Below are positions 395 through 22,359 of a stretch of 43,553 nt of DNA, piece by piece; position 1 is the stretch's first letter; the number at the start of each line of letters is the position of its first letter. The translations under genes were made by a program, and so were the position numbers. Source of the stretch: Escherichia phage EP-B-K_E2. The notes under the pieces were generated by a model that saw nothing but the letters and a program-made list of their open reading frames with translations, was not told the DNA's origin and did no database searches. The stretch lies in sequence record OR992644.1. The stretch is one strand, 5' to 3'.

Positions 395-596
395 ACTCTT
401 CTGATAACTTCTCAAGTACAAACGCCAGTTGCGCATTAGCGGCGTCTCTTTGCTGGCGTAGTCGTAGAACCTCCTCCTCGAGTTCCTTGATACGTTTTAT
501 TTCTCGCTTTAACTGCATAGCAAGAAGTTGCTCGCGGGCGTTAAGAGCGTCTTTTATCAATTCGTTGCAAGCGTCAATATCGAACTCATTACTCAT
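393..596 (-). CDS. hypothetical coiled-coil protein
   Basis: 67-aa ORF, heptad-like charged sequence, last gene of minus-strand operon. Confidence 0.5.
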   Translation of the reverse strand: MSNEFDIDACNELIKDALNAREQLLAMQLKREIKRIKELEEEVLRLRQQRDAANAQLAFVLEKLSEE

Positions 597-2017
597 TTCT
601 TACCTCGTCTCTTCATGTAGTTAAGCAACTCTTCCTGTACAGATTTCTTCTCGTCTGTACGCGCAGCAACAACCTCATCCAGCGTGTCTTTAGCTACGAT
701 ATGGTAGAGGAACACCGGGCGCTCGTGGCCCGCCTGTTTCTGGCGTACCGGGCCGATGCGCTCAACGACCTGCAAATAGTGCTCAAGGTTCCAGCCCTGC
801 GAAATAAACGCCAGATGGTGACCGCCGTCCTGTAAATTCAAACCATGCCCGGCTGACGCAGGATGTACGCATAGGATTTCGATTTCGCCACGGTTCCACG
901 CTTCCATCTGCTTATTACCCTTAGCGCCTTTTGCAAACGCCTGTGCCTGCGGGAAACGTTTCAGGATGCGTTCCAGTTCGTGCTTGAACTGATAAGCCAC
1001 AAGCAGCGGTGCACCCTGTAACTCCTCAACAATCGACCCCAGCGCATCCAGTTTCGTGTCGTGCACTTTCTCCCAGTCTTTGGTTGCTTCGCCGTCTGGC
1101 CCCGACACATACACGGCGCCGGATGCAATCTGGAGGCACTTCGACGTCTTCGCCGCCGCGTTAGCGGCTTCAACTTCTCCGCTCTCCAGTTCCGCGAATA
1201 ACTTCTCCTCCATATCGATGTACGCCTGACGCGCTTTCTTAGGCAGGTCGATTTCAACCGGTACAATAATCGGCGCTTCACAACCAAACCACTCGGCAGC
1301 GTCAATCGTGAGACTAATGTCTTTCATCTTCTGATGAATCTCAGTATCCGCACCCGGGCGGGCGTGATATTCACGCGCCATAGCCGACTTACCTTTCTGC
1401 ACTGAGTTAAACCAGCGGTCGGTGAATGCCGTGTACGATGAACCGAGGCGCTCTCCTGCGTCGATAAACCAGTTCTGGCCCCACAAGTCCTTGAGGCCGT
1501 TAGGTGATGGTGTACCAGTCAGGTTGATGAAACGCTTAACTTTACCGAATGCCACTTTGCTGAGCGCCTTCGCTCGCTTGCTCCCACCCGAACAGCTGCG
1601 GAAAGATTTTAGCTTCGTGCTTTCATCGGCAACGATAACCGTGAAAGGCCAGTCGTCTTTGCCGTAGTAGTCAATCAGCCATTCGATAACTTCGTAGTTA
1701 GTGCACACCACGTTAGCATCTGACTCCAGCGCCGCGATGCGGCGCTTCTCCGAACCAGTTGCATCTACGACACGCAGACAAGGGAATTGCCATTTCTCTT
1801 GTTCAGCGGGCCACGTACCGGACGCAACACGTAACGGGGCAAGGATTAACACGCGGTCCTCTTCCGTAAGCTGCCCGTTGCGGAACAGGCGGTTGAGCAC
1901 CCACATAGTGGAGGAGGTTTTACCTCCCCCCATTCCGCACCAGATATTACAGCGCGGGTGTTGCAGCATGAACGAAGTCATGAGCTTCTGGTACTCGCGC
2001 CTTTGAAACTTACTCAT
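593..2017 (-). CDS. SNF2/DEAD-like superfamily 2 DNA helicase
   Basis: Walker A GMGGGKTS, DExx-like VADES, helicase C-terminal region; 474 aa. Confidence 0.75.
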   Translation of the reverse strand: MSKFQRREYQKLMTSFMLQHPRCNIWCGMGGGKTSSTMWVLNRLFRNGQLTEEDRVLILAPLRVASGTWPAEQEKWQFPCLRVVDATGSEKRRIAALESDANVVCTNYEVIEWLIDYYGKDDWPFTVIVADESTKLKSFRSCSGGSKRAKALSKVAFGKVKRFINLTGTPSPNGLKDLWGQNWFIDAGERLGSSYTAFTDRWFNSVQKGKSAMAREYHARPGADTEIHQKMKDISLTIDAAEWFGCEAPIIVPVEIDLPKKARQAYIDMEEKLFAELESGEVEAANAAAKTSKCLQIASGAVYVSGPDGEATKDWEKVHDTKLDALGSIVEELQGAPLLVAYQFKHELERILKRFPQAQAFAKGAKGNKQMEAWNRGEIEILCVHPASAGHGLNLQDGGHHLAFISQGWNLEHYLQVVERIGPVRQKQAGHERPVFLYHIVAKDTLDEVVAARTDEKKSVQEELLNYMKRRGKK

Positions 2018-2939
2018 TTACCGCCCCCATGAATGCCTTTATAAATTCAGCGGCTACTTGCGGGACGATGGCATTGCCATAACCGCGCAATCGTCCCACT
2101 CTGGCGGGTACCCCATTAGCCAGCGGGAATGTGCCGGGTTCAACTGGCCTGAATTTTCCATCCCGGCATCCGAGCCAGTCAGTATCTGACCAGAAGCCGT
2201 GATGCGGATTGGCCGCGATATTTTCAGTCCCTGCTCCGTTGAGTAGTCCAGCCTGCTGAATGTCCTGTCCTTCCCGTCCTTGCGAATAACTGTCTCTCCG
2301 CTCCCTCTGTAATCGTTCGCGGTCGGCGTCACCCATGCCGCCATCGCAGCGGCCCATCCCAGTTTGTTCGGTTTCGTCCTGCCGTCTGTGCTGCGCATGT
2401 TCACGTCGTTTGTTATCAGTGATACCGCCGGTGTGGGCCAGTCTGTGCGCGCCGAAGAACAGCCTGTCGCGTTTGTGCGGTGCGCCGACGCTACAAGCTG
2501 GGAGTACGGCAAACCCGACGGCGTAGTCTTCTCCTTCCAGGTGAGTTTGTAAATCGCACATCCACGATTTTGCAATTGCTGGCGCAACTTGTTCCCCAAA
2601 GATGACTGGAGGACGGCACTCGCTGATGAGGTCAAGGAAGACTGGAGCGAGGTGTCTCGGGTCGAACTGTCCGAGTTGTTTTCCTGCCGCGCTAAACGGT
2701 TGGCAAGGCGGGCTTCCCGTCCAGAGAGGCGTATCTTCCGAAACTCCCGCAAGTCTGAGCGCGAGAGACCAGCCGCCGATACCAGCGAAAAAATGACACT
2801 GGGTGAACCCGTCAAGGTCTTCTGGTCTAACTTCAGTAATGCTTCTTTCATCTACAACTCCAAAAGGTATGTGGCCCTGTTTTATCAACTCGCGCAGCCA
2901 CGCGGTTGCGCCTTTATCCCACTCGTTGTAATAGTTCAT
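2010..2939 (-). CDS. DNA (cytosine-5)-methyltransferase
   Basis: Motif I FFAGIGG, motif IV GSPPCQPFSAAGK (PCQ), motif VIII RDRLFFG, C-terminal GNAIVP. Confidence 0.75.
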   Translation of the reverse strand: MNYYNEWDKGATAWLRELIKQGHIPFGVVDERSITEVRPEDLDGFTQCHFFAGIGGWSLALRLAGVSEDTPLWTGSPPCQPFSAAGKQLGQFDPRHLAPVFLDLISECRPPVIFGEQVAPAIAKSWMCDLQTHLEGEDYAVGFAVLPACSVGAPHKRDRLFFGAHRLAHTGGITDNKRREHAQHRRQDETEQTGMGRCDGGMGDADRERLQRERRDSYSQGREGQDIQQAGLLNGAGTENIAANPHHGFWSDTDWLGCRDGKFRPVEPGTFPLANGVPARVGRLRGYGNAIVPQVAAEFIKAFMGAVNE

Positions 2940-3127
2940 TTTGCCACCAAAACTAGCTCTTTACGCCCGAACGCCGTAACGTTACCGGTTACATCTTCGA
3001 TAACCAGTTTACCGTTTGACTCGACGAACACAGTATCAACGGCAACAGGCTGGCGGGTCTTAACGTTGAAAATCATGTCGCCAGGTACGATGTCACGTGC
3101 TGGCTTGCGGTCATATTCGTGTTTCAT
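2936..3127 (-). CDS. hypothetical protein
   Basis: 63-aa ORF tightly coupled to upstream genes, promoter immediately upstream. Confidence 0.45.
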   Translation of the reverse strand: MKHEYDRKPARDIVPGDMIFNVKTRQPVAVDTVFVESNGKLVIEDVTGNVTAFGRKELVLVAK

Positions 3128-3157
3128 TTCTCAATTCCTTATATTGTTGGTGTATGG

Positions 3158-3445
3158 CTAACTATAATAGTTCGCTATTAGGTCGTCAACCTGTTTAAAC
3201 GAACCAACGACAAAAACATTTGCACCGCGTTTACGCATCCGCTCATGCTCACGTAACTGGTGCGGGTCAGGCTTCGTGTTTTCGTCTTTCTTAACCTCGA
3301 CGAACCAGACGATGCCGCCGGGGAGAATTACCAGCAGGTCAGGGGCGCCGGAGCGCCCCTCGTACGAAAGTTTACGAACGAGGCCGCCAATGGCCTCGAA
3401 TTGCTCTTTTGCGTATTTCTGTACGCGGCCCTCTTTAGTCGCCAT
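3158..3445 (-). CDS. VRR-NUC domain nuclease (PD-(D/E)XK)
   Basis: GAPDLLVILPGG...VEVK motif typical of VRR-NUC. Confidence 0.7.
   Translation of the reverse strand: MATKEGRVQKYAKEQFEAIGGLVRKLSYEGRSGAPDLLVILPGGIVWFVEVKKDENTKPDPHQLREHERMRKRGANVFVVGSFKQVDDLIANYYS
3161..3189 (-). promoter_or_regulatory. sigma70-like promoter TTGACG-N17-TATAGT with AATAG-N4-CTATT dyad
   Basis: Read on minus strand; same architecture as 7070-7098 and 9383-9411. Confidence 0.6.
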
Positions 3446-3941
3446 GGTTGCAAAACTCTCCGTGCAGTTTTGCCCTAAATTCTCTCAGCGATTCGTCTGC
3501 TTCATTTAGGTTCTGGAAATACCCAATCTGGTGGCGTGTACCTTTAAAACCAACGCGGGCACACCAAGCATTATGGTGCTTACTCCAGTTAACCCCTTTC
3601 ACCCCGCTGGTGTTTGTAACTGGGGTCTTGCGGTTATGGTTCTGTTGAAATTCATCCGCAAGCCGTAGGTTACAAATCCGATTATCGTCCCGTATGCCGT
3701 TAATATGGTCTATTTGCTTAGTTGGCATCTCTCCGTACACCCACCACCACGCCAGCCTGTGTGCGCGGTAATACACCCTATTCCATCCTAACAATATGTA
3801 CCCTTTACGGTCCTTGTATGTAACAACATCTCCGGGTTTCGCGGTCTGGCATCTGTGCTTGACCCATTTAAATATCCCGGTATCTGGGTCGTATGACAGA
3901 AAATCTTTTATATCGTCACTTGGTGCTTTCATAATACACAC
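3435..3941 (-). CDS. HNH homing-type endonuclease with AP2-like DNA-binding domain
   Basis: HRLAWWWVYGEMPTKQIDHINGIRDDNRICNLRL HNH motif; C-terminal GVKGVNW...YFQNLNEA AP2-like. Confidence 0.65.
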   Translation of the reverse strand: MCIMKAPSDDIKDFLSYDPDTGIFKWVKHRCQTAKPGDVVTYKDRKGYILLGWNRVYYRAHRLAWWWVYGEMPTKQIDHINGIRDDNRICNLRLADEFQQNHNRKTPVTNTSGVKGVNWSKHHNAWCARVGFKGTRHQIGYFQNLNEADESLREFRAKLHGEFCNHGD

Positions 3942-4135
3942 CCCTCACGTTTCGTATGCTCAATACCGCAGCGCGGACAGATTCGGCAGTCTTCCTCATA
4001 AAACCAGTAAATTTTCATTCCAGCACCCACAGATAAATTGCGATGAACATACCCAATACGGCTACCATCATGCCGTATTACCCCTCGTGACAGTAGACAC
4101 CGGCGGCGAATCCCGCCAGTACCGCAATAATCAGT

Positions 4136-20269: not shown

Positions 20270-20327
20270 TAGACGGGCTAGATAAACGATGCTAGTATCA
20301 ACCCATCCATTGAAGTGGGTTGATACT

Positions 20328-21125
20328 ATGAATTACGAAAAGATATACGAAAGCTTTATATCTCGTTGCAGGTCGCTGCCACACCGGGGCTACGCCGAAA
20401 GACACCACATACTGCCGCGGTCCTTAGGCGGGGATGACTCCCCCGAGAATCTTATTGATTTATCCGCAAGAGAACATTTCTTCGCGCATCTCCTTCTGGC
20501 AAAAATCCACGGCGGCAACATGTGGGCCGCTCTGGCATACATGTCAAGAGGCGGCACTAAGTCAAGCAAACTACATAAATGCACATCCCGTCAGTATGAG
20601 TTTATAAAGCGTAAAGACGCTGAATGGCGTAGCTTGGCGTACCGTGGGGATAAAAACCCGTTCTACGGGAAAACGCATTCACCACAAGCCCTGGCGAAAA
20701 TGCGCAAACCTAGAGTCAATAAAGAGAGACTTTTTGGGCGGGCGGTGCCGGGTGTCGGGGCTATCATATCGTTTGTGCAGACATATAGACCCCGTGCGGT
20801 AGAAATAGATACTACGGTTAGAGACCGAATTGATAGTTGGTTCGCGGTGGACGAAGAACTGCGGCAGCTTAATGTATTCCTCGCCCGTAGCCAAGGGCAG
20901 AAAGCGCTCAATCGAGACCACCACGGCGAAAAGAACCCAAACTACGGCAATGGGAAAGCCATATCCGGCGAAAAGAACCCGATGTTCGGTAAGAAACACA
21001 GCGAAAGCACCAGGGCTAAAATTGCGGAGAAAATGAAACGCACTATGGTGTGCCCGCACTGCGGCAAAGAATCTAACATAGCAAACGCACATAGGTGGCA
21101 CTTTGACAACTGCAAACACAAATGA
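20328..21125 (+). CDS. HNH homing-type endonuclease with NUMOD3-like repeats
   Basis: HHILPRSLGGDDSPENLIDLSAREH HNH motif; repeated KNPxYGK motifs. Confidence 0.7.
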   Translation: MNYEKIYESFISRCRSLPHRGYAERHHILPRSLGGDDSPENLIDLSAREHFFAHLLLAKIHGGNMWAALAYMSRGGTKSSKLHKCTSRQYEFIKRKDAEWRSLAYRGDKNPFYGKTHSPQALAKMRKPRVNKERLFGRAVPGVGAIISFVQTYRPRAVEIDTTVRDRIDSWFAVDEELRQLNVFLARSQGQKALNRDHHGEKNPNYGNGKAISGEKNPMFGKKHSESTRAKIAEKMKRTMVCPHCGKESNIANAHRWHFDNCKHK

Positions 21126-22359
21126 GAAAGAGATGTTGCTTCTCCCGCACCAATACGAACTATTGGCTGATACCACGACAAAGATAATCGGGCTGTGTTC
21201 CGGATTCGGGGGCGGTAAAACGTACAGCGCCGCGCGTAAAGCGGTGCATCTGGCTCTTCTTAACCCAGGTGTAGACGGAATAATAACAGAGCCGACGTTT
21301 CCTCTGTTAGTGCAGGTTATGTTTCCAGAACTTATGGCGGCGCTGGACTTCTTCGGCGTCAAATACAAGTTCAACAAGGTTGAGTCTATTTTTTATTGCG
21401 ACATAAACGGGCAAACAACCCGTATTATTTGCGGAAGTATGGAGAACTATCAGCGACTTATCGGGATAAACGCCGCGTGGTGCGTGTGCGACGAGTTTGA
21501 TACCGCTAAGCAAGAAACCGCTTATGCCGCGTACATGAAGCTGCTAGGCCGCCTTCGTAGGGGTAATGTGCGCCAGTTGGTGATAGTGTCTACCCCTGAG
21601 GGTTTCAGGGCGATGTACCAGATATTCGTAACCGAAGCCGATGCCAGCAAACGGCTAATACGTGCGAAGACAACCGATAACTACCACTTACCAGCGGACT
21701 ACGTAGAGTCAATGCGCAGCCAGTACCCTGAGCAACTCATAAACGCCTATCTGAATGGCGAGTTCGTAAACCTTACATCTGGAGTTGTATATTATGGCTA
21801 TCAACGAGGTAAATGCGAATCCAACGAAACTATTAAACCGGGTGAACCTCTATACATTGGGCAGGATTTTAACGTCGGCAAAATGGCGTCGTGCGTTTAT
21901 GTAAAACGCGGTGCTGATTTTCATGCGGTAGCCGAGTTGGTCGACCTTTTTGATACCCCTGATGTAGTTCGCGTTATCAAGGAGCGGTGGGCCGGGCATC
22001 ACATAATTATGTACCCAGACGCCAGTGGTCGTAATCGTAAAAGCAACTCCGCTTCCACATCTGACATAGCTATCCTGGAGCAAGCAGGATTTGAGATTAG
22101 AGCTAAATCAAAAAATCCACCTGTGAAAGACCGTGTCGCCGCGAGTAACGCCGCGTTTGAAAAAGGTAGAGTCTTTATTAACTCGAAGGCTTGCCCTGCA
22201 ACGGCGCGAGGATTAGAGCAGCAAGCCTATGATAAAAACGGTGAGCCAGAGAAAAACGGCGTAATCGACCATATGGTTGACGCAGCTACATACTTGATCG
22301 CTTACGAGATGCCAGTAGCTAAACCTGTCATTAATATACCGGTTACTTTCGCGCTATAA
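21103..22359 (+). CDS. terminase large subunit
   Basis: Walker A-like GFGGGKTYSA, 418 aa, followed by portal. Confidence 0.8.
   Translation: MTTANTNEKEMLLLPHQYELLADTTTKIIGLCSGFGGGKTYSAARKAVHLALLNPGVDGIITEPTFPLLVQVMFPELMAALDFFGVKYKFNKVESIFYCDINGQTTRIICGSMENYQRLIGINAAWCVCDEFDTAKQETAYAAYMKLLGRLRRGNVRQLVIVSTPEGFRAMYQIFVTEADASKRLIRAKTTDNYHLPADYVESMRSQYPEQLINAYLNGEFVNLTSGVVYYGYQRGKCESNETIKPGEPLYIGQDFNVGKMASCVYVKRGADFHAVAELVDLFDTPDVVRVIKERWAGHHIIMYPDASGRNRKSNSASTSDIAILEQAGFEIRAKSKNPPVKDRVAASNAAFEKGRVFINSKACPATARGLEQQAYDKNGEPEKNGVIDHMVDAATYLIAYEMPVAKPVINIPVTFAL

What the first reader, a model, noticed from the sequence alone, without database searches (positions are those of the whole stretch)
2010..2939. 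Phage-encoded C5-cytosine methyltransferase translationally coupled to the helicase
The motif order (FxGxG, PCQ, RxR, GN) is that of a cytosine-5 methyltransferase. The gene overlaps the helicase start by 8 nt. No cognate restriction endonuclease is present, so this is probably an orphan anti-restriction methylase whose target specificity is unknown.
Basis: partly seen in the sequence, partly recalled or inferred. Interest (0 to 1): 0.35.

Follow-up and report, generated by a model that had tools for sequence, protein, structure and literature searches.

The report
Two-frame, two-subunit phage cytosine methyltransferase
The gene is a real phage cytosine-5 DNA methyltransferase, but 86% of it also encodes, one base out of frame, a second conserved protein that most likely is the enzyme's missing small subunit, an arrangement proven once (M.EcoHK31I, 1995), which I found in almost every relative examined from phages and bacteria.

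Summary
ORF 2010..2939(-) encodes a 309-aa C5-cytosine methyltransferase (Pfam PF00145, E 4e-17) with motifs I, IV, VI, VIII and X in order. It overlaps the SNF2 helicase start by 8 nt (ATGAGTAA). I found no restriction endonuclease in the window.

B has its own ATG, a GGAG Shine-Dalgarno 6 nt upstream, and its own PHROG family. It has about 10,000 homologue clusters. In essentially every complete locus examined (83/83, then about 55/57, then 76/78), B sits in the +1 frame of a C5-methyltransferase ORF. These loci include N15, Pseudomonas, Xanthomonas and Rhodobacter phages, a Lacticaseibacillus phage, a cyanophage and many prophages.

Codon-position variability shows a mosaic: A-only coding, then dual coding, then B-frame coding over the variable region, where A is an unconserved, polar linker of variable length. 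A second dual stretch follows, then A-only coding at motif X. B ends in QLNPAHSRWLMGYPPEW, which resembles motif IX.

The architecture matches M.EcoHK31I, whose β chain is encoded inside α in another frame and is required for activity. Most likely the window encodes an orphan α/β methyltransferase. Homology to M.EcoHK31I itself, enzymatic activity and target site remain untested.

The parts
2010..2939 (-). ORF A (alpha): 309-aa C5-cytosine DNA methyltransferase large chain, with motifs I, IV, VI, VIII and X
   Evidence: ORF list. Pfam PF00145, E 4.4e-17. phrog_363, E 3.9e-88. hhalign to M.HhaI residues 2-170, probability 97%. At least 8000 homologues.
2054..2851 (-). ORF B (proposed beta): 265-aa ORF wholly inside ORF A in the +1 frame (ATG 2851..2849, TAG 2056..2054)
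   Evidence: ORF list. phrog_1008, E 1e-59. 5400 homologues and 9937 representative clusters. Annotated as 'putative Mte8-like protein' / 'DNA methyltransferase' in K1ind phages. Always found in the +1 frame of a C5-methyltransferase ORF.
2858..2861 (-). GGAG Shine-Dalgarno-like sequence 6 nt upstream of the ORF B start codon; a TAG in the B frame immediately precedes the ATG
   Evidence: Sequence GGAGTTGTAGATG. Anti-SD duplex energy -5.9 kcal/mol. Across 132 loci the first B-frame ATG falls at alpha residues 21-40 in 116, with median SD energy -5.8 against -3.0 background.
2772..2789 (-). Alpha motif I (FAGIGG, AdoMet binding)
2691..2711 (-). Alpha motif IV (PPCQPFS, catalytic cysteine)
2454..2480 (-). 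Alpha motif VIII (PHKRDRLFF); the same nucleotides encode conserved beta residues (ASAHRT...)
2205..2447 (-). Alpha aa 165-245: unconserved, polar linker kept open in frame A. The same DNA in frame B encodes the variable region of beta (aa 136-215) with W-x-T-P anchors (WPTP 2429..2440, WVTPTANDY 2309..2335)
   Evidence: Column conservation here is 0.12-0.37 in A and up to 0.59 in B. Third-position periodicity follows frame B. The linker is 36-222 aa long across loci, 72% polar or disorder-promoting residues and 15% hydrophobic. Repeat number is 0-6.
2513..2611 (-). Beta aa 81-113 (LQSSLGNKLRQQLQNRG...YKLTWKEKTTPSG): start of the conserved beta core, overlapping alpha motif VI
   Evidence: Conservation. 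Synonymous-site entropy in frame A drops from 1.3-1.8 to 0.9-1.2 bits. Present in N15, Haboob, R23.9 and Cy-LDV1.
2087..2209 (-). Doubly constrained stretch. Beta aa 215-255 (IRITASGQILTGSDAGM...QLNPAHSRWLMGYPPEWDDC, motif-IX-like) lies over alpha aa 244-284 (part of the conserved block WSDTDWLGCRDGKFRPVEPGTFPLANGVPARVGRL... that precedes motif X)
   Evidence: Both frames have conservation of 0.6-0.9. All three codon positions have low entropy. The only hhalign match of the B profile to M.HhaI falls on motif IX (residues 273-290), E 0.2.
2061..2078 (-). Alpha motif X (GNAIVP); ORF B stops within it
   Evidence: A-only codon signature from gene nt 841 onward.
2010..2017 (-). 8-nt overlap ATGAGTAA between the methyltransferase stop and the SNF2 helicase start (helicase 593..2017)
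2936..2939 (-). 4-nt overlap ATGA between the upstream 63-aa ORF (2936..3127) and the methyltransferase start

Best explanation
The locus encodes an orphan, phage-borne C5-cytosine methyltransferase made of two polypeptides translated from one stretch of DNA in two frames.

Chain alpha (ORF A, 309 aa) carries the catalytic large-domain motifs I-VIII. A disordered linker follows, then a conserved block and motif X. Chain beta (ORF B, 265 aa) starts at its own SD and ATG at 2851, in the +1 frame. It carries the variable W-x-T-P region and a motif-IX-like C-terminus, which are the parts that form the small, DNA-reading domain in monomeric enzymes.

Beta is proposed to dock on alpha and complete the DNA-binding cleft, as shown experimentally for M.EcoHK31I alpha/beta. 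The holoenzyme would then methylate phage DNA during replication, consistent with its place in the replication operon, and so blunt host restriction.

Shown here: both ORFs exist, both are conserved under frame-specific constraint, and no restriction enzyme is present. Inferred: beta is translated separately, both chains are needed, beta holds the specificity determinants, and the role is anti-restriction.
For: 1. ORF B is open for 265 codons in the +1 frame. In 300 shuffles of the window gene that kept the alpha protein and its codon usage, none reached that length (mean 109, maximum 233).

2. The arrangement recurs in three independent samples. In 83/83 loci found through B, frame A was open across B and carried motifs IV and X, and nearly always I and VI too. 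The +1 frame was open for 220-424 codons, with the WLMG motif, in nearly all complete loci found through A. It held in 75 of 80 bacterial genome loci, and 76 of 78 once two loci cut by contig ends are set aside and L167, which only failed my length rule, is counted. In N15, Haboob, PhiXhv-18, RcDora, EBPR siphovirus 2, Lacticaseibacillus phage R23.9 and cyanophage Cy-LDV1 I worked out the frame myself from coordinates and ORF lists, and B is in the +1 frame of alpha in every one.

3. Codon-position entropy over 132 unique loci shows an A-only signature at gene nt 1-300. Synonymous variability is reduced at 300-500. B-frame periodicity, with A unconserved, holds at 500-740. All positions are constrained at 750-840, and the signature is A-only again at 841-930.

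4. The first B-frame ATG clusters at alpha residues 21-40 in 116 of 132 loci and has an enriched SD. In the window the SD is GGAG, 6 nt upstream.

5. In other lineages frame B continues without a stop into bona fide domains: Dam, MT-A70, Endonuclease VII and DUF2800.

6. The alpha region overlying the B variable region is 36-222 aa long, 72% polar and 15% hydrophobic.

7. There is an experimental precedent. [quoted passage not shown] Both are required, and separate expression reconstitutes activity in vivo (PMC2836561; PMC3404938).

8. The only hhalign match of the B profile to M.HhaI lands on motif IX.

9. Orphan status: no restriction endonuclease in the window or its relative, and prophage or methyltransferase neighbours elsewhere.
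Against: - There is no direct evidence of translation of B in this phage.
- B has no Pfam or PDB sequence match. The motif IX match is not significant (E 0.2).
- AlphaFold2 models of both chains alone were of very low confidence (pLDDT 47 and 37), so no structural test was possible.
- Alpha has its own stretch, RPVEPGTFPLANGVP, that loosely fits the motif IX pattern (my reading of the sequence). Alpha might therefore be self-sufficient.
- The first roughly 75 residues of B show no B-frame selection.
- In GC-rich relatives the +1 frame stays open fairly often by composition alone (up to 146 of 300 shuffles in one locus). Openness alone is weak evidence there.
Confidence: 0.7

Rival explanations
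1. ORF A is a self-sufficient monomeric methyltransferase. ORF B is translated but does something else, such as an anti-defence or DNA-binding accessory function, and merely shares the DNA.
For: B has no detectable sequence similarity to any Pfam family or solved structure. Alone, it is predicted to be mostly disordered. Alpha carries a loosely motif-IX-like stretch before motif X (sequence). In some lineages B is fused to unrelated enzymes.
Against: In every one of more than 200 loci B is physically tied to a C5-methyltransferase ORF and was never found free-standing. Between motifs VIII and X alpha has only an unconserved polar linker where a folded variable region should be. The fusion partners include two other DNA methyltransferases. 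The M.EcoHK31I precedent also argues against it.
Confidence: 0.15
2. A programmed +1 ribosomal frameshift fuses the alpha N-terminal catalytic part to the beta C-terminal part. With a second shift back, this would rebuild a canonical single-chain enzyme.
For: Database proteins exist that read alpha N-terminus then beta C-terminus, for example P0122, which joins after motif VIII. The order alpha(I-VIII), beta(variable region, IX), alpha(X) would mimic a canonical enzyme.
Against: The fusions are rare (6 of 268 proteins, plus one B-to-A fusion), and their junctions sit at different places: after motif I, after IV, after VIII. That pattern is what sporadic indels or assembly errors give. Frame B is open from far upstream and has its own conserved ATG and SD. 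A single shift would lose motif X. Chimeric sequences did not improve or extend the PF00145 match. In M.EcoHK31I, beta is initiated separately. I did not screen for slippery sites.
Confidence: 0.05
3. ORF B is not expressed. The open, apparently conserved +1 frame is a by-product of the alpha protein sequence and base composition.
For: Over gene nt 88-300, B conservation simply mirrors alpha constraint: A3 (= B2) is the most variable position. In GC-rich loci, synonymous shuffles often keep the +1 frame open.
Against: In the window none of 300 shuffles reached the observed length. In the variable region alpha is not conserved, yet B anchors (W-x-T-P) are, and the periodicity follows frame B. 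Frame A synonymous variability drops where the B core begins. The third frame stays open for only 37-94 codons at most. B also shows in-frame fusions to real domains and a conserved start with an SD.
Confidence: 0.05

Closest known systems
M.EcoHK31I (E. coli HK31; Lee, Kam & Shaw 1995, as described in PMC2836561 and PMC3404938)
   Same: It is a C5-cytosine methyltransferase made of two chains. Beta is encoded entirely inside the alpha gene in another reading frame. [quoted passage not shown] The N-terminal part of beta is dispensable, which parallels the lack of B-frame selection over the first ~75 residues here. From memory, alpha is 309 aa, the same length as ORF A.
   Different: M.EcoHK31I belongs to a restriction-modification system (site YGGCCR), whereas this one is an orphan in a lytic phage. 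The literature places the predicted target-recognition domain of M.EcoHK31I in alpha. Here the variable region is selected in the beta frame. Beta here is longer (265 aa against 176 aa, the latter from memory). Sequence homology between the two was not tested, so the two may share an origin or be convergent.
M.AquI (Agmenellum quadruplicatum; Karreman & de Waard 1990, cited in PMC3404938)
   Same: It is a naturally two-chain C5-methyltransferase split within the variable region. Both chains are needed.
   Different: M.AquI is split end to end: alpha holds I-VIII and beta holds IX-X. It is not nested. Here motif X stays on alpha, and beta is embedded in alpha's coding sequence.
Monomeric C5-methyltransferases such as M.HhaI and M.HaeIII (PF00145)
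   Same: The catalytic motifs I, IV, VI, VIII and X match. Alpha aligns to M.HhaI residues 2-170.
   Different: No folded variable region or small domain is encoded in the alpha frame. The N-terminal motif order looks rearranged: a motif-II-like YYNEWD precedes motif I, and the alignment needs a 35-aa gap where motifs II and III normally sit.
Rz/Rz1 spanin genes of phage lambda (recalled from general knowledge)
   Same: One phage gene is wholly embedded in the +1 frame of another. The two products work together as one complex.
   Different: The function is unrelated (lysis) and the embedded gene is much shorter. Here the overlap is about 800 nt and spans enzyme core motifs.

Membership tests
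C5-cytosine DNA methyltransferase (PF00145) | Whole-protein score above the Pfam gathering threshold | tested here: met
   62.9 bits against a cut-off of 22, E 4.4e-17, covering aa 74-181. TIGR00675 scored below its cut-off (39 against 100.65).
C5-cytosine DNA methyltransferase (PF00145) | Motif I (FxGxG), motif IV (PCQ with the catalytic Cys), motif VI (ENV-like), motif VIII (QxRxR-like) and motif X (GN), in that order | tested here: met
   FAGIGG 51-56, PPCQPFS 77-83, FGEQV 114-118, HKRDR 155-159 and GNAIVP 288-293. Motifs I-VIII align to M.HhaI.
C5-cytosine DNA methyltransferase (PF00145) | A folded variable region (TRD) plus motif IX between motifs VIII and X on the same chain | tested here: not met
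   In alpha, aa 165-245 are unconserved (0.12-0.37), of variable length (36-222 aa) and 72% polar. Neither Pfam nor hhalign aligns anything beyond motif VIII. The conserved variable-region anchors and the motif-IX-like segment lie in frame B.
M.EcoHK31I-type alpha/beta C5-methyltransferase | The beta ORF lies entirely within the alpha ORF in a different reading frame | tested here: met
   B is 2054..2851, inside A at 2010..2939, in the +1 frame. The arrangement is conserved in more than 200 loci.
M.EcoHK31I-type alpha/beta C5-methyltransferase | Alpha carries motifs I-VIII and X | tested here: met
M.EcoHK31I-type alpha/beta C5-methyltransferase | Beta carries motif IX | tested here: inconclusive
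   The B segment QLNPAHSRWLMGYPPEWD is the sole hhalign match to M.HhaI. No B-family member hit PF00145.
M.EcoHK31I-type alpha/beta C5-methyltransferase | Beta is translated from its own start | tested here: inconclusive
   ATG with GGAG 6 nt upstream. The start position is conserved and the SD enriched across 132 loci. No expression data were examined at codon resolution.
M.EcoHK31I-type alpha/beta C5-methyltransferase | Both chains are required for methylation | not testable with these tools
   This needs biochemistry or genetics.
M.EcoHK31I-type alpha/beta C5-methyltransferase | Sequence homology to M.EcoHK31I alpha and beta | not tested
   The original paper (PMC306636) is not held.
Orphan (solitary) phage methyltransferase | No cognate restriction endonuclease in the genome | tested here: met
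   The relative's 76 annotated genes include none. Ten ORFs tested from the larger window-specific segments gave only HNH homing endonucleases and structural genes. Short window-specific ORFs and segments were not all scanned.
Programmed ribosomal frameshift gene | A fixed shift site joining the two frames, with the downstream frame lacking its own start | tested here: not met
   B has a conserved ATG and SD. The rare fused database proteins join at different positions. I did not screen for slippery motifs.

The most novel reading that the evidence does not exclude
The DNA-reading part of this enzyme family, a variable array of 0-6 W-x-T-P modules plus motif IX, is encoded only in the +1 frame. 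It would then be a separate, exchangeable specificity subunit, while the alpha frame across it is just a tether. That would make this one of the most widespread long same-strand overlapping gene pairs known in phages and bacteria (about 10,000 clusters at 50% identity, from Lacticaseibacillus phages to cyanophages). It is systematically missed or mis-called by annotation pipelines, and it may explain multi- or relaxed-specificity phage C5-methyltransferases.
Probability: 0.4. Interest if true: 0.65.

Novelty: new member of a known kind. Interest (0 to 1): 0.5.

Why it matters
- **Gene model.** Annotating this locus as one monomeric methyltransferase hides a second protein that is probably essential for activity and specificity. 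Many phage records list only one CDS. One record leaves the locus blank, and PGAP splits a prophage copy into two 'incomplete' pseudogenes.
- **Experiments.** Cloning ORF A with recoded or 'optimised' codons would destroy beta and could give an inactive enzyme. Specificity prediction from the annotated protein looks at a linker.
- **Biology.** An overlap of about 800 nt, conserved across phyla with a clean mosaic of frame-specific constraint, is a strong natural test case for how overlapping genes evolve. It also bears on how C5-methyltransferase domains can be split.
- **Phage-host conflict.** The family is overwhelmingly prophage- or phage-borne and often sits next to other methyltransferases, which fits a broad anti-restriction toolkit.

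Tried and rejected
- **AlphaFold2 models.** ORF B with a 65-sequence alignment gave pLDDT 46.9. ORF A with a 50-sequence alignment gave pLDDT 36.6. Both are too poor to use, so I ran no fold search. The alignments allowed by the tool were too shallow (identity above 57%).
- **B profile against all PDB sequences.** No hit at E up to 10.
- **Pfam on B and on 48 diverse B members.** No PF00145 hit.
- **Pfam on three chimeras** (alpha 1-165 + beta 137-265; the same with a return to alpha at motif X). The score was not improved and the alignment did not extend (60.3-61.7 against 62.9 bits). There is therefore no profile support for a double-frameshift 'canonical' product.
- **hhalign of B against M.HhaI.** It matched only motif IX and was not significant.
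- **Literature.** 'Mte8' leads only to a passing mention. I found no paper linking phage C5-methyltransferases to an embedded beta gene. The YGGCCR search led to an unrelated m4C enzyme in Paracoccus. The 1995 M.EcoHK31I paper and the 2009 supplement are not held.
- **E. coli genome search for a restriction-modification-linked copy.** All 68 hits are on chromosomes. The two whose surroundings I inspected lie among phage-type genes, with no restriction enzyme.
- **Codon-position counts in the 19 closest relatives.** These were underpowered in the variable region because of indels (40/39/53 changes, not significant). The 132-locus entropy profile is the better evidence.
Full report
**What the window is.** The region 1900-3200 is 100% identical to Escherichia phage EP-M-A. 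It is 92-94% identical to Kagunavirus phages (Guernseyvirinae) such as fEg-Eco06 and K1ind1-3. The gene lies in a minus-strand replication operon: DNA polymerase A, an HNH endonuclease, VRR-NUC, a 63-aa ORF, the methyltransferase, an SNF2 helicase and a toprim protein.

**Checking the observation.** ORF 2010..2939(-) encodes 309 aa.
- It passes Pfam PF00145 (62.9 bits against a cut-off of 22, E 4.4e-17).
- It matches phrog_363 end to end (E 3.9e-88).
- It aligns to M.HhaI residues 2-170 with 97% hhalign probability.
- Motifs I (FAGIGG), IV (PPCQPFS), VI (FGEQV), VIII (HKRDR) and X (GNAIVP) stand in the stated order.
- The helicase ORF is 593..2017(-), so the overlap is the 8 nt ATGAGTAA. The upstream ORF overlaps the methyltransferase start by 4 nt.

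I found no restriction endonuclease. The relative's 76 genes include none. Among ten ORFs tested from the larger segments lacking a match to that relative, the only endonucleases are two HNH homing enzymes.

The ORF list shows a 265-aa ORF, B, at 2054..2851(-). It lies wholly inside the methyltransferase gene and is offset by 88 nt, which puts it in the +1 frame. The third frame is full of stops. B matches its own PHROG family, phrog_1008 (E 1e-59). GenBank records of the K1ind phages annotate it as 'putative Mte8-like protein', and RefSeq calls it a second 'DNA methyltransferase'. Most other records list one CDS only. B has 5400 homologues at E below 1e-3 in the 90% clustered collection. It has 9937 representative clusters at 50% identity.

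**The dual-frame arrangement is general.** By tblastn, B-like sequence lies under annotated cytosine methyltransferase genes in phages of Klebsiella, Burkholderia, Xanthomonas, Vibrio, Pseudomonas, Bordetella, Rhodobacter and others. In every case where I worked out the frame, B is in the +1 frame of the methyltransferase ORF:
- N15 gp58, Pseudomonas phage Haboob and Xanthomonas phage PhiXhv-18, which annotates both ORFs;
- Rhodobacter phage RcDora and EBPR siphovirus 2;
- the Gram-positive Lacticaseibacillus phage R23.9 and cyanophage Cy-LDV1.

Three independent samples agree.
- Of 83 loci found through B, all 83 have frame A open across B. All carry motifs IV and X, and nearly all carry I and VI as well. 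The third frame is typically open for only 7 codons there.
- Among 65 viral loci found through A, not B, essentially all complete ones have the +1 frame open for 220-424 codons with the WLMG motif. The +2 frame reaches only 37-94 codons. One locus, L131, has a single stop in B.
- Of 80 bacterial genome loci, 75 passed my criteria. That becomes 76 of 78 once two loci cut by contig ends are excluded and L167, which only failed my length rule, is counted. These loci come from Alpha-, Beta- and Gammaproteobacteria and Desulfovibrio. They also include MAGs labelled Bacteroidetes, Planctomycetaceae, Lentisphaeraceae and Woesearchaeota.

**Is frame B under selection?**
- *Shuffling test.* I permuted synonymous codons within the window gene, keeping the alpha protein and its codon usage. 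None of 300 shuffles reached 265 open codons (mean 109, maximum 233). Over all 132 unique loci, 653 of 39,600 shuffles reached the observed length. In GC-rich loci the test is weak.
- *Conservation.* Column conservation over the 132 loci shows alpha strongly conserved at gene nt 1-480 and 750-900. It is poorly conserved at 500-720 (0.12-0.37). B is best conserved at 300-500, at the W-V-T-P anchor (0.59) and at 720-880 (up to 0.86).
- *Codon-position entropy.* This gives a clean mosaic:

| Gene nt | Pattern | Reading |
|---|---|---|
| 1-300 | Alpha third positions carry 1.3-1.8 bits against 0.3-0.9 at positions 1-2 | A-only coding; B is merely open |
| 300-480 | Alpha third-position entropy falls to 0.9-1.2 bits | Extra constraint from B |
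| 500-740 | Most variable position is B3; at 598-627 the B1/B2/B3 entropies are 0.96/0.82/1.55 | B-frame coding |
| 750-840 | All three positions are low | True double constraint |
| 841 onward | A-only signature returns | Motif X |

- *Start site.* The first B-frame ATG maps to alpha residues 21-40 in 116 of 132 loci, just upstream of motif I. SD pairing there is enriched (median -5.8 against -3.0 kcal/mol). In the window the context is GGAGTTGTAGATG, and a B-frame TAG sits immediately before the ATG.
- *Fusions.* In other lineages frame B runs on without a stop into real domains. These are Dam (E 4e-53), MT-A70 (E 8e-25), Endonuclease VII (E 6.5e-24) and DUF2800/PD-(D/E)XK (E 4.6e-50).

Together these results make 'unexpressed by-product' very unlikely.

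**What the two products look like.** Alpha holds motifs I-VIII. An 81-aa stretch follows (aa 165-245, rich in R, G, Q, D and E). Across loci this stretch is 36-222 aa long, 72% polar and only 15% hydrophobic. A conserved 42-aa block and motif X come next.

Beta begins with about 75 residues that show no selection of their own. The conserved core follows:
- LQSSLxxRLxxxLxxxGSxLYxLTWK;
- a variable region built from 0-6 W-x-[TS]-[PAT] anchors;
- an invariant C-terminus, RITASGxxLTGSxAGMExxGQLNPAHSRWLMGxPPEWDxC.

By eye this C-terminus resembles the end of the variable region plus motif IX of monomeric enzymes (M.HhaI...RKLHPRECARVMGYPDSY). The only hhalign match of the B profile to M.HhaI falls exactly there, but it is not significant (E 0.2).

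**Mechanism and precedent.** In monomeric C5-methyltransferases the small domain, made of the variable region and motif IX, makes all base-specific contacts (PMC3404938). M.EcoHK31I is a documented exception with the architecture seen here. [quoted passage not shown] Both chains are needed. Silently removing the beta start codons abolishes activity, and expressing alpha and beta from separate plasmids restores it. The N-terminal 42 residues of beta are dispensable in vitro (PMC2836561).

The best explanation is that the window encodes such an alpha/beta enzyme. Here, on the selection evidence, the whole variable region belongs to beta, and the alpha frame across it is only a tether that keeps motif X attached. 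Separate translation, the need for both chains, specificity residing in beta and the anti-restriction role are all inferences.

**Rivals.**
- *Programmed +1 frameshift.* Rare database proteins do read alpha then beta (P0122, P0133, P0115 and others). Their junctions differ, as sporadic indels would give. B also has its own start, and chimeric sequences gain nothing against PF00145.
- *Alpha self-sufficient, B doing something else.* This cannot be excluded without experiments. But B was never found apart from a methyltransferase ORF, and alpha lacks a conserved variable region.

**Comparison and novelty.** The kind is known from M.EcoHK31I, and more loosely from the end-to-end split M.AquI. This phage gene pair has sat in GenBank as two CDSs since 2010, without functional interpretation.

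In the literature I could search, I found nothing that recognises the nested alpha/beta layout as the rule for a very large, mostly phage- and prophage-borne methyltransferase family. I could not test sequence homology to M.EcoHK31I itself. The two may be homologous or convergent. I therefore file this as a new member of a known kind. A variant reading remains open, in which the target-recognition domain lies in beta.

**Practical consequences.** Annotation is inconsistent:
- only one CDS in many records;
- no CDS at all in Salmonella phage SAP012;
- two 'incomplete' pseudogene fragments in a RefSeq prophage copy.

Codon-optimised cloning of ORF A would silently delete beta.

**Limits.** Both AlphaFold2 runs gave unusable models, so there is no structural evidence. 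No expression data were examined at codon resolution. One transcriptome paper on a Kagunavirus lists two adjacent methyltransferase-type genes expressed late (PMC12645636), but I did not map them onto these ORFs. The target sequence remains unknown.

Noticed in passing
window 3435..3941 (-) and 20289..21125 (+): Two free-standing HNH endonuclease genes are absent from the 92-94% identical relative fEg-Eco06. One (HNH_3, E 2e-12) lies between VRR-NUC and the DNA polymerase. The other (HNH + NUMOD3, E 3.7e-19) lies directly upstream of, and overlaps, the terminase large subunit gene 21103..22359. They look like mobile homing endonucleases.
   Followed up: partly
window 2772..2933 (-), ORF A residues 3-56: The N-terminal motif order looks rearranged. 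A motif-II-like YYNEWD (aa 3-8) and VDERSI precede motif I (FAGIGG, aa 51-56). The alignment to M.HhaI needs a 35-aa gap where motifs II and III normally sit. The alpha chain of Lacticaseibacillus phage R23.9 has the usual order. This may be a local permutation of the AdoMet-binding fold in the N15/Kagunavirus subfamily.
   Followed up: no
L021:2459-3934, L014:2411-3757, proteins P0139 and P0141: In other lineages the beta reading frame continues without a stop into a further domain: MT-A70 adenine methyltransferase, Endonuclease VII (Klebsiella phage KpV2811 group), Dam methyltransferase, or DUF2800/PD-(D/E)XK nuclease.
   Followed up: partly
L156 (E. coli Ec1117 prophage) 2908..4077; L239 (Salmonella phage SAP012) 1156..1949: Automatic annotation mishandles the locus. 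PGAP splits a prophage copy into two 'incomplete' pseudogene fragments, next to a frameshifted MT-A70 gene. In SAP012 the whole region carrying the homologue is left unannotated.
   Followed up: no
L158-L237 (80 bacterial genome loci), flanks: The nearest large neighbours of the alpha/beta pair in bacterial genomes are prophage genes (integrases, replication proteins, terminases, NinG, antiterminator Q) and other DNA methyltransferases (N6_N4_Mtase in 9, D12 class in 4, Dam in 1). No restriction enzyme family is among the 25 commonest. This suggests methyltransferase clusters in prophages.
   Followed up: partly
window 2205..2447 and homologous loci: The number of W-x-T-P anchors in beta (0-6) and the length of the alpha linker (36-222 aa) vary widely, even among related phages. 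Some beta proteins carry long tandem arrays of GWPTP modules (for example P0137). This recalls the tandem target-recognition domains of multispecific Bacillus phage methyltransferases.
   Followed up: no
L131 (IMG/VR contig 3300035670_000075) 979..981: This is the one viral locus where frame B is interrupted by a single in-frame stop while frame A stays open. It could be a sequencing error, a decaying beta, or a beta that starts downstream.
   Followed up: no
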